The notes under the pieces are model-generated. The model saw nothing but the letters and a program-made list of their open reading frames with translations. It had not been told where the DNA came from and ran no database searches. Shown here one piece after another: positions 15,269 to 47,366 of a DNA stretch of 64,000 bases (the stretch's first letter is position 1; the number at the start of each line of letters is the position of its first letter). Source of the stretch: a virus (Duplodnaviria; Heunggongvirae; Uroviricota; Caudoviricetes; Demerecviridae); the IMG/VR virus record IMGVR_UViG_2974607751_000001, positions 35,533-99,532 of that record; one strand, 5' to 3'. The position numbers were made by a program, and so were the translations under genes.

Positions 15269-17143
15269 TTATTTAGCGCGAATGTCTTGATGTTTCACTC
15301 GACCCATAACCTCATGCTGTTTGCCTGGGTTAAATGGACGAGCACCTGGATTTCCGAGATATCCACAAACTCGACGAGTTACCTCAAGAGTCTCAGGATC
15401 ATGGTTGCCACAGATAGGGCATTTGAAACCATCCTCAGAAGCTATAGTTTCACCCAAGAACCCACATTCCCCACAAGAGTCTACTGGAGTATTAATACCG
15501 AAATAATGAACTTTACTTGCAGCATAGTTAATAACCCATTCCAGTGCATCTGGGAATCGTTTCATGTCTGGCAATTCCACATAGGAAATGCACCCACCAG
15601 AAGCAATTGGAGTAAAGTTAGACTCATAATCAAACTTCACGTTTGGAGCAACCTTACGCTCCACATCAAGGTGATGGGAGTTAGTGTAGTATCCTTTAGC
15701 CAGAATATCTTCATGCTCTGGGAAATACTCACGGTCTAGACGACAGAAGCGATCACACAGAGATTCAGATGGTGTAGCATATAGACTATAACCTAATTGA
15801 GTCTCTTCCTTCTTCTGATCAGCACGATCACGCATATACTGTAACACACGTTGAACGAACTTGATACAAGACTCAGACATTGTATCTACGTCTTTACCAA
15901 ACATGAACTGCAACATTTCGTGACAGCCTATATATCCTAGAGATACAGAAGCACGCTTGTAGAAATGATCAAATACATATTCATCTGGCCCCAGACGTAA
16001 TCCAAAGGCTCCTGACATATAGAGGATGGGCGCAGCTTTAGCTTGAATGTATTTTAAGCGATCAACCCTCCACTCCAATGCTTTTAACGCAGTATCAACA
16101 CGCAGCTCGAGCAGATCGAAGAATAGATCAATATTTCCTTCTGCTTCAATAGCGATTCGAGGAAGGTTTACAGAGACAACGCCTAAATTGTTACGACCAG
16201 AAGTCTCCCCATCTTCTGCAGCAGCTAAGAATGAACGACAGCCCATAGAGACTTTGTAGTCGCCAGTAACTTCTACAACCTTATCATAACTGATATAGTC
16301 AGGATACATACGTTCAGCAGTACATTTCATAGCTAACTTCTTGATATCATAGTTGACATCTCCAGGTTTCATATTTACGCCATCTTGCAGAACAAATACT
16401 AGTTTAGGGAAGATAGCTGTACGTTTATTAATACCCAAACCATCCATGCGCACTTCTAGGATTGCTTTCTGTACAAGACGTGCTTCCCAAGAAGTTCCTA
16501 GACCAAAACCAAAGGTAATAAATGGACTCTGACCATTAGAGTTGAACATCGTATTGATTTCGTACTCTAGACCTTGACAGGCATCGTAAACTTCCTTCTC
16601 AGTCATTTCCGTAGCCATTACAGATGCTTTGGCTTCATCCTTAGTCCAACGTTTTGCAAACGCATGATTCTTATCATAAGACTTACGAACATAGGGAGCC
16701 AATACTTCATCTAATCGGTCTACAGAAGTACCACCATACTGATGGGAGCTAACTTGAGTGATAATCTGAGCTGTAATAGCAGCCGCAGTAGTAATAGAGT
16801 TTGGTGTACTGATTTCAGCATTACCAACCTTCATACCATTCTTCAACATATCTTCCAAAGCAACCAGGCAACAGTTAGTCATACCTAACGCAGCGTAATC
16901 AGCATCATGGAAGTGAATATCACCAATCATGTGAGCATTTCGAATCTGGATTGGCATTTCTTCCAGAATCAGATATTTACTCAATTCCCCTGCAAGCATA
17001 TCCCTTTGTGTAGGGAAACGTTCTGAGGGCTTATTGGCATTATTAAACAGCAGCTCTTCATCTGCTGAACCTTCGATAATTTCTTTGCAGTTTCGAATCA
17101 AGGACTGCATTCCTTTATATTTTAGTTCTTCATTGCGATTCAT
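15269..17143 (-). CDS. nrdD: Anaerobic ribonucleoside-triphosphate reductase (class III, glycyl radical)
   Basis: The C-terminal glycyl radical motif is TRRVCGYLG. A Zn ribbon CGECGF...CPICG lies just upstream of it. Confidence 0.9.
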   Translation of the reverse strand: MNRNEELKYKGMQSLIRNCKEIIEGSADEELLFNNANKPSERFPTQRDMLAGELSKYLILEEMPIQIRNAHMIGDIHFHDADYAALGMTNCCLVALEDMLKNGMKVGNAEISTPNSITTAAAITAQIITQVSSHQYGGTSVDRLDEVLAPYVRKSYDKNHAFAKRWTKDEAKASVMATEMTEKEVYDACQGLEYEINTMFNSNGQSPFITFGFGLGTSWEARLVQKAILEVRMDGLGINKRTAIFPKLVFVLQDGVNMKPGDVNYDIKKLAMKCTAERMYPDYISYDKVVEVTGDYKVSMGCRSFLAAAEDGETSGRNNLGVVSVNLPRIAIEAEGNIDLFFDLLELRVDTALKALEWRVDRLKYIQAKAAPILYMSGAFGLRLGPDEYVFDHFYKRASVSLGYIGCHEMLQFMFGKDVDTMSESCIKFVQRVLQYMRDRADQKKEETQLGYSLYATPSESLCDRFCRLDREYFPEHEDILAKGYYTNSHHLDVERKVAPNVKFDYESNFTPIASGGCISYVELPDMKRFPDALEWVINYAASKVHYFGINTPVDSCGECGFLGETIASEDGFKCPICGNHDPETLEVTRRVCGYLGNPGARPFNPGKQHEVMGRVKHQDIRAK

Positions 17144-43082: not shown

Positions 43083-43346
43083 ATGTTTGATCTGAAAGAT
43101 ATGGCTAAGAAACTAATGTCGCAACGTTATCAACAAAGAACACTCCATAAACGAGTTTCCGATATGAAGAAACGTTGCAATAATGCTAAGTATTATAATA
43201 GTCTTAATAAACTATCTGATGTAGATCTTGCTAAAACTGAAGCAATATATAATCACTTAGTAGTAGAATCTGATATAGTGGATAAAGATATTGCTAGGCT
43301 AGAAGCTCAGATTGTAGCAACTGTTCTTGATATGTATAGAGAATAA
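43083..43346 (+). CDS. hypothetical small protein
   Basis: It follows a ~230-nt structured leader. Confidence 0.4.
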   Translation: MFDLKDMAKKLMSQRYQQRTLHKRVSDMKKRCNNAKYYNSLNKLSDVDLAKTEAIYNHLVVESDIVDKDIARLEAQIVATVLDMYRE

Positions 43347-43891: not shown

Positions 43892-43981
43892 GGAAGTACG
43901 GGCGTAGTGGTATGCAACTAGTCTTGAAAACTAGCCCGCTGTAGCGATATGGTGATGGTTCGACTCCATGTGCTTCCGCCA
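43892..43981 (+). tRNA. tRNA-Ser (TGA), type II
   Basis: Acceptor ggaagta/tgcttcc. Anticodon arm ctagt-cttgaaa-actag. Confidence 0.55.
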
Positions 43982-45549: not shown

Positions 45550-45636
45550 GCTGGGTTGGCAGAAAGGCTGAATGCACCTGACTTGTAATCAGAAGGAGCA
45601 ATCCCGTTGCAGGTTCGAATCCTGTGCCCAGCACCA
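45550..45636 (+). tRNA. Type-II-architecture tRNA carrying a Thr anticodon (TGT), discriminator A73
   Basis: Acceptor gctgggt/gcccagc. 3-bp D-stem gca/tgc with an 11-nt D-loop. Anticodon arm ctga-cttgtaa-tcag. 15-nt variable arm gga-GCAA-tcc. Confidence 0.5.
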
Positions 45637-45651
45637 ATTTAAGGAAACCTA

Positions 45652-46074
45652 ATGCAAGAAACGTTATACGAAAGGCTTGGGGGCATATTTGCTATAGCGG
45701 CAATAGTAAATCATTTTAGTGATGCACTTATCACTAATCCAGTAGTAGGACAGCATTCTGCTAATAAAGCTCTAGCTGATTGGCATAACAATAGTTTAGC
45801 TAATTTACCTGGTCTTAAATGGATGCGTACTCTTTGGGTTGCTAGTATTACAGGTGGGCCATACACTTATGTTGGAACTAAACCTGATGCTTCTCCTCTA
45901 GGATTACAGAATGCACATGCCAGATTTAAGATTACCTCAGAAGAGTTTGATGCTGTTGCGGGCGAGCTATTAAAAACTCTAAAGATTGGTAAAGTTGGTG
46001 ATAAAGAAATTCAGGAAGTTATGGGTGCATTTGCTGCTCATAAGAATGAAGTTATTGCTGGTTCTAAAATTTAA
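45652..46074 (+). CDS. Truncated (2/2) hemoglobin
   Basis: N-terminal LYERLGG..AIAAIV, a second Gly-Gly SITGGPY and a proximal-His region NAHARFKITSEEFDA follow the trHb layout. The RBS is aaggaaacctaATG. Confidence 0.6.
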   Translation: MQETLYERLGGIFAIAAIVNHFSDALITNPVVGQHSANKALADWHNNSLANLPGLKWMRTLWVASITGGPYTYVGTKPDASPLGLQNAHARFKITSEEFDAVAGELLKTLKIGKVGDKEIQEVMGAFAAHKNEVIAGSKI

Positions 46075-46141
46075 AAATTCATTTGCCTTCTCTCTTATTT
46101 CTTGTTATAATATTTATATAAATTAATGAGAGGGAAACCAA

Positions 46142-46997: not shown

Positions 46998-47366
46998 ATG
47001 AAAGCATATCAAAGTCTTAAGTCTGGCGTAATTAACATTGTTCATAACAATCAGATCATTCAACTATATTCTAAAGATGGTGAACTTAAACAGAAAGTTC
47101 TAGTCGAAGATCTAGAAGGTATCACACCTCACTTTGACCCTGAGGCCTTTCGCATTGTAGATGTGGAAGTGGTTCCTCAAGTCGAGGGTGGTCAGCACCT
47201 AAATGTCAATGTGTTAAGCCGTGATCAGCTTTTGGATGCGCAGAAACATCCTGAAAAATATCCTCAGTTGACCATCCGTGTCTCTGGCTATGCTGTTCGA
47301 TTTAACGCATTGACGCGTGAACAACAGAACGACGTTATTAGTCGTACATTTACTCAGGCGATATAA
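46998..47366 (+). CDS. grcA: GrcA/YfiD-like autonomous glycyl radical cofactor
   Basis: The C-terminus [56 protein letters not shown] is near-identical to the E. coli GrcA/PFL C-terminal glycyl radical domain, including RVSGY. Confidence 0.8.

What the first reader, a model, noticed from the sequence alone, without database searches (positions are those of the whole stretch)
45652..46074. Truncated (2/2) hemoglobin gene embedded in the tRNA cluster
The 140-aa ORF has the hallmarks of trHb group I/II: an N-terminal LYERLGG motif, a second Gly-Gly motif, and a proximal His in the region NAHARFKITSEEFDA. It has a good RBS. Together with NrdD and GrcA (both oxygen-labile glycyl radical systems), this suggests a phage-borne module for managing oxygen or nitric oxide. 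A globin in a T5-like phage would be unusual.
Basis: partly seen in the sequence, partly recalled or inferred. Interest (0 to 1): 0.6.

Follow-up and report, generated by a model that had tools for sequence, protein, structure and literature searches.

The report
Truncated hemoglobin gene in T5-like phage
A T5-like Salmonella phage (STG2) carries a well-conserved gene for a small bacterial-type "truncated" hemoglobin, which is almost unheard of in phages and probably lets the infected cell cope with nitric oxide, oxygen or related reactive molecules, though its chemistry has not been tested.

Summary
Window 45652-46074 (+) is a real 140-aa gene, STG2_99 of Salmonella phage STG2, deposited as "hypothetical protein". 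It passes Pfam Bac_globin. Its AlphaFold model matches solved group-1 (N) truncated hemoglobins (TM 0.90, rmsd 1.8 A). Both Gly-Gly motifs and the proximal His (His89, F8) are present.

It belongs to a large, uncharacterised bacterial subfamily with an atypical pocket: Ser at B10 instead of Tyr, Leu E7, Met E10, Arg E11, Trp E14, His at H16, and two insertions. Classical NO-dioxygenase chemistry therefore cannot be assumed.

Among about 50,700 phage records only STG2 has the gene. Three metagenomic T5-like contigs carry it in the same slot, between tRNA-Thr and a conserved promoter. dN/dS is about 0.06, its divergence equals that of flanking genes, and its GC3 is the lowest in the window. It is an old, selected resident with a patchy distribution, not a fresh import.

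The proposed "module" with NrdD and GrcA is not supported. Those are core genes of all T5-like phages, and NrdD lies 30 kb away.

Verdict: a new member, in an unusual host genome, of a known protein family. The function (heme-based NO/O2/ROS chemistry) is inferred only. Interest is moderate.

The parts
45652..46074 (+). Globin CDS (STG2_99, 140 aa), a group-N-type truncated hemoglobin homolog. Key codons: Phe22 (B9) and Ser23 (B10) at 45715-45720; Leu55 (E7) at 45814-45816; Met58 (E10) and Arg59 (E11) at 45823-45828; Trp62 (E14) at 45835-45837; His89 (F8) at 45916-45918; Val102 (G8) at 45955-45957; His130 (H16) at 46039-46041.
   Evidence: ORF. Pfam. PDB sequence hits. AF2 model with pLDDT 86. 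Foldseek TM 0.90 to 8ugz. Residue mapping and the numbering in PMC11904497. Conservation. dN/dS 0.06.
45641..45645 (+). Shine-Dalgarno AAGGA, 6 nt upstream of the ATG. It is shared with the alternative 55-aa cassette of slur09-type phages.
   Evidence: Sequence.
45550..45636 (+). tRNA-Thr(UGU), the 87-nt allele with a long variable arm. It ends 15 nt before the globin ATG with no promoter-like site between them, so the globin is presumably co-transcribed with it.
   Evidence: ARAGORN. Rfam tRNA 51.8 bits. Promoter scan. The allele is shared with about 100 T5-like phages.
45636..45642 (+). Left copy of the 7-nt direct repeat AATTTAA that brackets the cassette.
   Evidence: The empty-site relatives read CACCAAATTTAAAAATTC.
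46068..46074 (+). Right copy of the direct repeat AATTTAA. It includes the globin stop codon TAA.
46083..46111 (+). Promoter-like site (TTGCCT, 17-nt spacer, TG-extended TATAAT) for the downstream 97-aa ORF. It marks the right boundary of the variable slot. The intergenic stretch 46075-46141 is 98-100% identical to the closer T5-like loci L003, L004 and L005 (95.5% to slur09, L007), while the flanking ORFs are only 82-85% identical.

Best explanation
STG2_99 is a functional, cytoplasmic, heme-binding truncated hemoglobin of the group-N lineage that T5-like phages carry as an accessory gene. It is translated from its own Shine-Dalgarno on the early tRNA-region transcript. It binds heme b through His89 (F8), possibly helped by His130 (H16), the position that covalently anchors heme in cyanobacterial GlbN. 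It then reacts with small reactive ligands in the infected enterobacterial cell. The most likely role is removing or buffering NO and related reactive nitrogen or oxygen species, with generic host reductases re-reducing the heme. This would come at a time when the phage has shut off host gene expression, so the host can no longer induce its own defences such as Hmp and NorV. That would protect radical- and iron-dependent enzymes the phage needs for dNTP synthesis. What is shown: the gene is real, has the globin fold and F8 His, has a fully conserved pocket, is under strong purifying selection, lacks an export signal, and has a sporadic distribution. What is inferred: heme binding, the ligand, the reductase, the expression timing and the benefit to the phage.
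For: Family and fold: Pfam Bac_globin is above its cutoff. The best PDB sequence hits are all group 1 trHbs. The AF2 model has pLDDT 86 and pTM 0.79. All 50 top Foldseek PDB hits are truncated hemoglobins with group N first (TM 0.90, rmsd 1.8 A to SbHbN 8ugz). Pocket: the positions mapped to B9, B10, E7, E11, E14, F4, F7, F8, G5, G8 and H16 are invariant (E10 nearly so) in 48 bacterial homologs, and all, including E10, are identical in the three phage alleles and six other viral copies. Selection: dN/dS is 0.059-0.061 at dS 0.7-1.2. The globin's nucleotide divergence equals that of flanking genes, and its GC3 of 0.20 is ameliorated from bacterial loci with about 62% GC. Location: there is no leader peptide, whereas 55 of the 120 closest homologs have Sec- or Tat-like leaders. 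The Tat leaders are consistent with a protein that folds around a cofactor. The host lacks the gene, with no match in 5,426 E. coli genomes. Precedent: M. tuberculosis HbN detoxifies NO when expressed in E. coli (Pathania 2002, as listed in PMC3820574). The low-confidence pre-F loop (residues 71-90, pLDDT 59-67) is what one expects of a trHb modelled without heme.
Against: The distal residues that support high-affinity O2 binding and NO dioxygenation in TrHbN-1 are absent: Tyr B10 and Gln E11 are replaced by Ser23 and Arg59. By sequence alignment CD1 falls on Ser36, and an 11-13 residue insertion remodels the CD region, so pocket geometry is uncertain. Two arginines that are nearly invariant in bacterial homologs (R51, and R90 at F9) are Asn and Ala in all phage alleles, which could affect heme-propionate contacts or partner binding. 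Bacterial genomic context gives no functional pointer. Gardner's review warns that NOD function cannot be assigned a priori (PMC3820574). No expression or biochemical data exist.
Confidence: 0.55

Rival explanations
1. It is a heme protein with different chemistry. The Ser B10 / Arg E11 / Met E10 / His H16 pocket would make a covalently anchored, possibly His/Met six-coordinate heme. That heme would work as a peroxidase, peroxynitrite- or anion-directed enzyme (nitrite, peroxide, superoxide), or as a small electron carrier, rather than as an O2-dependent NO dioxygenase.
For: Arg59 (E11), Ser23 (B10) and Trp62 (E14) are invariant and Met58 (E10) is nearly invariant. A distal Arg is typical of peroxide- or anion-handling heme enzymes (general knowledge). 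Met at E10 ligates ferrous iron in the THB1 K(E10)M variant (PMC11904497). His130 aligns with GlbN His117, the heme-crosslinking residue. About 46% of close bacterial homologs look exported, to a compartment without NAD(P)H reductases. Bustamante et al. link polar or aromatic pockets to a catalase-peroxidase-like function (PMC4720485).
Against: In SbHbN the Met at E10 does not ligate the iron. The orientation of Arg59 relative to the iron could not be measured. The phage copy is cytoplasmic. No member of the subfamily has been characterised.
Confidence: 0.2
2. It manages oxygen. The globin would buffer or scavenge O2 to protect the oxygen-labile glycyl-radical proteins NrdD and GrcA, or deliver O2 under microaerobic gut conditions.
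For: NrdD, the class Ia RNR and a GrcA-like protein are all encoded in the window. GrcA is 0.9 kb downstream. TrHbN-2 proteins are predicted to be low-affinity O2 carriers (PMC11904497).
Against: There is no co-occurrence. NrdD and GrcA are in essentially all T5-like relatives, while the globin is in about 1 of 450 matched records. A stoichiometric O2 binder cannot lower O2 meaningfully without turnover. The pocket differs from both the N-1 and N-2 types.
Confidence: 0.12
3. The globin fold has been repurposed. The phage protein would act by binding a host protein or another hydrophobic ligand (for host takeover or anti-defence), with heme chemistry irrelevant.
For: It lies in the accessory, highly mosaic early/tRNA region where T5-like phages keep small takeover genes. 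All phage alleles share surface-type changes at positions nearly invariant in bacteria (R51N, G79D, E86Q, R90A, D111K, K120I).
Against: Every pocket position, including F8 His, is strictly retained across phage alleles that have diverged to dS of about 1. That is hard to explain if ligand binding were dispensable.
Confidence: 0.08
4. It is a non-functional passenger or a mis-called ORF.
For: It was deposited as 'hypothetical protein'. It has no PHROG or NCBIfam hit and is absent from nearly all relatives.
Against: dN/dS is 0.06. The 140-aa frame is intact in three alleles that are 81-87% identical at nucleotide level. It has a proper SD and a strong family match.
Confidence: 0.02

Closest known systems
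Shewanella benthica TrHbN-2 (SbHbN; PDB 8UGZ, 8TLS, 7TT9)
   Same: It is the best sequence and structure match (30% identity, TM 0.90 normalised to the target, rmsd 1.8 A). It shares the LYERLGG start, both Gly-Gly motifs, His F8, Met at E10, Val at G8 and the absence of Tyr B10.
   Different: SbHbN is 116-117 aa with a hydrophobic pocket (Phe B10, Val E7, Val E11) and Tyr CD1. The phage protein has Ser B10, Leu E7, Arg E11, Trp E14, an insertion of about 11 residues forming an extra helix (residues 39-47, with invariant Trp44), a 7-residue pre-F insertion, and His at H16.
Mycobacterium tuberculosis HbN (TrHbN-1; PDB 1IDR), the archetypal NO-dioxygenase trHb
   Same: It has the same fold (TM 0.75-0.82, 24-25% identity), Leu at E7, Val at G8, His F8, and is a stand-alone globin relying on external reductases. 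It works in E. coli (PMC3820574).
   Different: HbN has Tyr B10 and Gln E11 forming the ligand H-bond network, plus a pre-A motif. The phage protein has Ser and Arg at those positions and no pre-A extension.
Cyanobacterial GlbN (Synechocystis / Synechococcus 7002; PDB 1RTX, 1S69, 4MAX)
   Same: The C-terminal AHK[x][DE]V motif aligns, placing phage His130 on GlbN His117 (H16), the residue that forms a covalent bond to the heme 2-vinyl. His F8 also aligns.
   Different: [quoted passage not shown] The phage protein has Met E10, Ser B10, Leu E7 and Arg E11.
Bacterial 'group 1 truncated hemoglobin' subfamily with the HFSDA...WH...LPGLKWMRTLW...FAAHK signature (Acidobacteriota, Limnocylindria, Hyphomicrobiales, Actinomycetota; PGAP-named, uncharacterised)
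   Same: Members are 57-66% identical over the full length, with the same insertions and an identical pocket.
   Different: About 46% of members carry Sec or Tat leaders, and their loci have about 62% GC. The phage clade has no leader, GC3 of 0.20, and clade-specific replacements R51N, G79D, E86Q, R90A, D111K and K120I.
Giant-virus truncated hemoglobins (Edafosvirus 'Globin' A0A3G4ZUD7; permafrost Pithoviridae-like MAGs, PMC9546926)
   Same: They belong to the same subfamily (54% identity, TMq 0.90. GVMAG loci L009, L010 and L013 are at 49-56%). They are virus-encoded accessory globins.
   Different: They are viruses of eukaryotes known from metagenomes only. They look like independent acquisitions, and none has been tested experimentally.

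Membership tests
Truncated (2/2) hemoglobins, Pfam PF01152 | Sequence match to the family profile above the curated threshold | tested here: met
   29.9 bits against a gathering score of 21, E 7e-7, covering profile positions 1-116 of 121.
Truncated (2/2) hemoglobins | 2-on-2 alpha-helical sandwich fold (B/E over G/H helices) | tested here: met
   AF2 pLDDT 86 and pTM 0.79. The top 50 Foldseek PDB hits are all trHbs, with best TM 0.90 and rmsd 1.8 A.
Truncated (2/2) hemoglobins | Gly-Gly motifs at the AB and EF corners | tested here: met
   G10-G11 and G68-G69 are invariant in the 51-sequence alignment.
Truncated (2/2) hemoglobins | Proximal histidine at F8 | tested here: met
   His89 aligns with SbHbN His69 and GlbN His70 and is invariant.
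Truncated (2/2) hemoglobins | Binds heme b | not testable with these tools
   This needs expression and spectroscopy. Conservation of the pocket residues is only indirect support.
Group I (N) rather than II (O), III (P) or IV (Q) | Closest to group N sequences and structures, and lacking the hallmarks of other groups (the basic EF/F stretch HPRLRxR of group O; His E7 and Trp E15 of group P; His E7, Glu E17 and RxR of group Q) | tested here: met
   All significant PDB sequence hits are group 1. In Foldseek, group N ranks 1-24 ahead of group II. E7 is Leu55, and the pre-F segment reads SPLGLQNAH without a basic stretch.
TrHbN-1 (HbN/GlbN type, NO dioxygenase-competent pocket) | Phe B9-Tyr B10 pair with Gln at E7 and/or E11 forming a ligand H-bond network | tested here: not met
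   B9 is Phe22, but B10 is Ser23, E7 is Leu55 and E11 is Arg59.
TrHbN-2 (SbHbN type) | Hydrophobic residues at B10, E7, E11 and G8, in a compact chain of about 116-118 aa | tested here: not met
   Ser23 and Arg59 are polar. There are two insertions (residues about 38-53 and 77-83) relative to SbHbN. E7 Leu and G8 Val do fit.
Truncated hemoglobins (general) | Aromatic residue (Phe, Tyr or His) at CD1 contacting the heme | tested here: inconclusive
   Both sequence alignments put CD1 on the invariant Ser36. However, the adjacent insertion forms a new helix carrying the invariant Trp44, which could fill the position.
GlbN-type covalent heme attachment | His at H16 positioned to add to the heme 2-vinyl | tested here: inconclusive
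   His130 aligns with GlbN His117 and is invariant. The crosslink itself cannot be tested in silico. The GlbN sequence used was recalled from memory and checked against its known landmarks.
NO dioxygenase (functional class) | Catalytic O2-dependent conversion of NO to nitrate with a reductase partner | not testable with these tools
   No adjacent reductase is present in the phage or in bacterial loci.
Phage accessory ('moron'/AMG-like) gene | Sporadic presence among close relatives at a fixed slot, with its own translation signals and under purifying selection | tested here: met
   It is present in STG2 and 3 metagenomic T5-like contigs in the same slot. It is absent from Sw2 and HMD-P2, and replaced by a 55-aa ORF in slur09. 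dN/dS is 0.06.

The most novel reading that the evidence does not exclude
STG2_99 would be the first tractable representative, in a cultured phage with E. coli and Salmonella hosts, of a third, uncharacterised branch of group-N truncated hemoglobins. That branch has Ser B10, Arg E11, Met E10, Trp E14, His H16 and an extra CD helix. Its heme would be covalently anchored and/or His/Met-ligated and would perform chemistry distinct from classical trHb NO dioxygenation. T5-like phages would use it as a genuine auxiliary gene to protect replication from nitrosative or oxidative stress after host shutoff, making it the first functional globin described in a bacteriophage.
Probability: 0.25. Interest if true: 0.7.

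Novelty: new member of a known kind. Interest (0 to 1): 0.5.

Why it matters
Globins are among the best-studied proteins, yet I found no described bacteriophage globin in the searched literature. The only viral examples are giant-virus metagenome bins reported in 2022 as "functions not previously observed". Here the gene sits in a cultured, lytic, genetically tractable phage of Salmonella and E. coli. It has clearly been kept by selection, and natural isogenic-like relatives lack it. That makes "what does a phage gain from a hemoglobin?" directly testable with knock-out or knock-in phages under NO, nitrite, peroxide or O2 shifts. It also gives an easy entry point to a widespread bacterial trHb subfamily (at least 563 species) with an unusual Ser/Arg/Met/His pocket that nobody has characterised. 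If it protects against nitrosative or oxidative stress, it would add redox-stress management to the list of phage auxiliary functions relevant to gut infection and to phage biocontrol, since STG2 was isolated for food biocontrol.

Tried and rejected
- PHROGs and NCBIfam gave no hit at E <= 1, so no phage-family or equivalog annotation exists.
- I clustered the neighbours of 80 bacterial loci to find a conserved partner such as a reductase or regulator. Nothing recurred beyond an ECF-type sigma factor in about 9 of 80 loci, so context gives no function.
- Group Q (IV) membership was considered because of the odd pocket. I rejected it because His E7, Glu E17 and the RxR motif are absent.
- His45 (the WH motif) was considered as a distal ligand because hhalign paired it with GlbN His46. 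I rejected it as obligatory because it is Ser, Asn or Tyr in other viral copies. The continuous E helix (residues 49-66) places Met58 at E10.
- I looked for a bacterial donor. NJ clustering puts the T5-like clade on its own long branch with no specific sister, so the donor is unresolved.
- I wanted to measure heme-pocket distances, but the model coordinates are not exposed to the sandbox.
- A recent-insertion scenario was suggested by the globin's absence in 96-97% identical relatives. I rejected it as the origin of the gene, because the globin's divergence equals the flank divergence to the other globin-bearing lineages and its GC3 is fully ameliorated. The patchiness is better explained by cassette exchange or loss at the slot flanked by AATTTAA repeats.
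- MFE folding of the 87-nt tRNA did not give a cloverleaf. Rfam and ARAGORN confirm it is a tRNA.

Full report
**Identity of the window and the ORF**

The window is Salmonella phage STG2 (MK005300.1 / NC_048089.1; Demerecviridae, Epseptimavirus), a T5-like phage. It matches at 100% identity over the 2-kb test stretch. The finding's ORF is exactly where stated: ATG at 45652, TAA ending at 46074, 140 aa. It was deposited as STG2_99, "hypothetical protein". An in-frame TAA at 45640-45642 excludes any N-terminal extension. AAGGA at 45641-45645 is a well-spaced Shine-Dalgarno. The gene lies between tRNA-Thr (45550-45636) and the 97-aa ORF, which is followed by tRNA-Ile and tRNA-Met, inside a run of 29 tRNA genes.

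**Is it a globin?**

Yes. Pfam Bac_globin (PF01152) matches end to end at 29.9 bits against a cutoff of 21. The only significant solved-structure relatives by sequence are group 1 truncated hemoglobins: Shewanella benthica SbHbN, cyanoglobins, M. tuberculosis HbN, THB1 and the Tetrahymena protein.

An AlphaFold2 model built on 51 homologs has mean pLDDT 86 and pTM 0.79. Its only soft region is the pre-F loop (residues 71-90), which in trHbs is organised by the heme. In Foldseek against the PDB, all 50 best hits are truncated hemoglobins. Group N comes first (SbHbN 8ugz: TM 0.90 normalised to the target, rmsd 1.8 A, 30% identity; HbN TM about 0.8), followed by group II.

**Pocket anatomy**

I combined the ungapped HMMER alignments to SbHbN with the residue numbering published for that protein (Phe(B10)21, His(B13)24, Tyr(CD1)34, Met(E10)45, His(F8)69, Glu(G2)76; PMC11904497). 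I then checked the result with an hhalign of the family profile against Synechocystis GlbN. That GlbN sequence is recalled from memory, but it reproduces the known landmarks: 124 aa, Tyr22, His46, His70 and His117.

The mapping is:
- B9: Phe22
- B10: Ser23
- B13: Leu26
- E7: Leu55
- E10: Met58
- E11: Arg59
- E14: Trp62
- F8: His89
- G8: Val102
- H16: His130

Most of these positions are invariant in 48 bacterial homologs (B13 varies among Leu, Val and Ile, and E10 is nearly invariant). All are identical in every viral copy.

So the proximal side and the hydrophobic core of a trHb are intact, but the distal side is atypical. The near-universal Tyr B10 (PMC4720485) is Ser, and Gln E11 is Arg. An 11-13 residue insertion forms an extra helix (residues 39-47) carrying the invariant Trp44, and there is a 7-residue insertion in the pre-F loop. 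By sequence alignment CD1 falls on Ser36, but the insertion makes that assignment uncertain, and I could not access model coordinates to check it.

His130 aligns with the GlbN histidine that covalently binds the heme 2-vinyl. That role is my own knowledge; adduct formation is referenced in PMC11904497, reference 43. According to the same paper, Met at E10 is a potential sixth ligand in some contexts. The protein fits neither the TrHbN-1 nor the TrHbN-2 consensus, and it lacks the group Q hallmarks.

**The family**

The large protein database returns 7,855 homologs. After two 91-93% identical phage proteins, identity drops to about 66%. The relatives form a tight subfamily (HFSDA...WH...LPGLKWMRTLW...GGP...AH...FAAHK) found in at least 563 species genomes. 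These are mostly soil and freshwater bacteria: Acidobacteriota, Limnocylindria, Hyphomicrobiales including Bradyrhizobium, Mesorhizobium and Methylocystis, and Actinomycetota. The subfamily is also on rhizobial megaplasmids, where PGAP names it "group 1 truncated hemoglobin".

Of the 120 closest homologs, 55 have Sec-like (34) or twin-arginine-like (21) leaders. The phage protein has none. No neighbour is conserved around the bacterial genes. I found no paper characterising a member.

**Distribution in viruses**

tblastn against 50,697 phage records finds only STG2, in its GenBank and RefSeq copies. About 450 T5-like records match the surrounding DNA.

The closest relatives, such as Sw2 and HMD-P2, have flanks 96-97% identical to STG2. 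In them a different 75-nt tRNA-Thr is followed directly by the conserved promoter and the 97-aa ORF. About 100 other T5-like phages share STG2's 87-nt tRNA-Thr allele, but an unrelated 55-aa ORF follows it. That ORF is swapped in precisely between the shared Shine-Dalgarno and the stop codon. In STG2 the cassette is bracketed by the direct repeat AATTTAA (45636-45642 and 46068-46074).

Three metagenomic T5-like contigs (112 kb, 66 kb and 7 kb) carry the globin in the same slot.

IMG/VR has six further loci of the subfamily at 49-62% identity. One ORF sits immediately after a Mu-type portal gene, two are on contigs of more than 200 kb, and three are in giant-virus bins. BFVD has a single significant hit, an Edafosvirus "Globin". 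Giant-virus trHbs were reported in 2022 as previously unobserved functions (PMC9546926). I found no report of a bacteriophage trHb. The E. coli collection (5,426 genomes) has no DNA match.

**Evolutionary status**

The three distinct phage alleles are 81-87% identical at nucleotide level but 91-93% identical at protein level. Nei-Gojobori dN/dS is 0.059-0.061 with dS of 0.7-1.2.

The globin's divergence between STG2 and the metagenomic lineages equals that of the neighbouring protein-coding genes (82-85%). Its GC3 of 0.20 is the lowest of 61 ORFs in the window (mean 0.345), while bacterial loci have a median GC of 62%. The T5-like proteins form one long branch with no identifiable donor.

The gene is therefore an old, selected resident of the T5-like accessory region. 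Its patchy distribution reflects cassette exchange or loss, not recent capture.

All phage alleles share replacements at positions nearly invariant in bacteria (R51N, G79D, E86Q, R90A at F9, D111K, K120I). That is compatible with adaptation to a new cellular context or partner.

**Context claims**

NrdD (15269-17143, minus strand), NrdA, NrdB, ThyA and a GrcA-like glycyl-radical protein (46998-47366) are confirmed. However, they are core genes present in relatives that lack the globin. NrdD is 30 kb away. A strong, extremely conserved promoter-like element (46083-46111) separates the globin from everything downstream. The intergenic stretch that holds it is 98-100% identical to the closer T5-like loci (95.5% to slur09), while the flanking ORFs are 82-85% identical. 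There is no genomic evidence for a dedicated module. A physiological link is still conceivable.

**Mechanism**

What is shown:
- The gene is real, selected, cytoplasmic and trHb-fold.
- It has F8 His and a strictly conserved pocket.
- It has its own SD and no promoter between it and the upstream tRNA.

What is inferred:
- It binds heme. I put this at about 0.8.
- It is expressed early with the tRNAs. T5 biology places this region in the early class (my knowledge).
- It reacts with NO, O2 or ROS.

I favour NO or reactive-species detoxification using host reductases. Three things point that way. A stand-alone trHbN can do this in E. coli (Pathania 2002, cited in PMC3820574). The host lacks any such globin. 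And T5-type host shutoff (my knowledge) would prevent induction of host defences.

The Ser B10 / Arg E11 / Met E10 / His H16 pocket makes different chemistry a serious rival: peroxide- or anion-directed reactions, or electron transfer by a six-coordinate, covalently held heme. Gardner's caution against a priori NOD assignment applies.

**Verdict**

Novelty is a new member of a known family in an unusual genomic host, belonging to an uncharacterised subfamily variant. Interest is moderate (0.5), helped by how easily it can be tested.

Noticed in passing
window 45550-45636 (+): The tRNA-Thr(UGU) just upstream of the globin is 87 nt, with a class-II-like long variable arm (a GGA-GCAA-TCC hairpin) and a 3-bp D stem. 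That is unusual for a Thr acceptor. Rfam scores it 51.8 bits as a tRNA. T5-like phages carry two alternative alleles at this slot: this 87-nt form in about 100 phages, and a conventional 75-nt tRNA-Thr in Sw2-type phages. In STG2 position 43 gives a C-A mismatch in the anticodon stem, which L004 and L005 repair (TCAGG). Whether ThrRS or SerRS, which reads long variable arms, charges it is an open question.
   Followed up: partly
window 46075-46141 (+): The 67-nt intergenic region downstream of the globin has a TTGCCT, 17-nt spacer, TGnTATAAT promoter-like site and an SD. It is 98.5-100% identical in L003, L004 and L005 and 95.5% identical in slur09, while the ORFs on either side are only 82-85% identical. 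It appears to be a strongly constrained regulatory element.
   Followed up: partly
L007 1603-1770 (Escherichia phage slur09) versus window 45652-46074: An unrelated 55-aa ORF (MFKLLVVIWYSQSNR...) occupies exactly the same slot as the globin in slur09-type phages, swapped between the shared Shine-Dalgarno and the stop codon. This indicates a cassette-exchange hotspot. The direct repeats AATTTAA flank the STG2 cassette.
   Followed up: partly
P0005, P0010, P0017 and others; statistics: About 46% of the closest bacterial homologs of this trHb subfamily carry Sec-like or twin-arginine (Tat-like, e.g. MSHFTRRSAVAGLAL) leaders. That implies exported or periplasmic truncated hemoglobins, a location rarely discussed for trHbs.
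   Followed up: partly
L012 3347-6570 (IMGVR_UViG_3300043331_001702): In a 19.7-kb viral contig, a 203-aa ORF containing the same globin subfamily domain starts at the stop of a Mu-type portal gene (Pfam Portal_Mu), inside a morphogenesis module. This is an odd place for a globin.
   Followed up: no
L004 1079-1597; L005 2184-2657, 4663-5244 and 11350-11847: The tRNA/accessory regions of the globin-bearing metagenomic T5-like contigs carry T5orf172/MUG113 and HNH_3 homing-endonuclease-like genes at positions that differ between lineages. These are plausible drivers of the mosaicism around the globin slot.
   Followed up: no
window ~43083-43346 (record 78615-78878, STG2_93) and ~43892-43981 (record 79424-79513): The GenBank record annotates an 87-aa ORF as 'rho-associated, coiled-coil containing protein kinase 2', which is almost certainly an annotation artefact. 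It also lists a second tRNA-Ser (STG2_t22) that ARAGORN did not report.
   Followed up: no
L011 10770-12245 (IMGVR_UViG_3300037466_001790, 216 kb, 32% GC): A TnpB/Cas12f-like OrfB_IS605 protein lies about 4 kb from the globin homolog on a large AT-rich viral contig.
   Followed up: no
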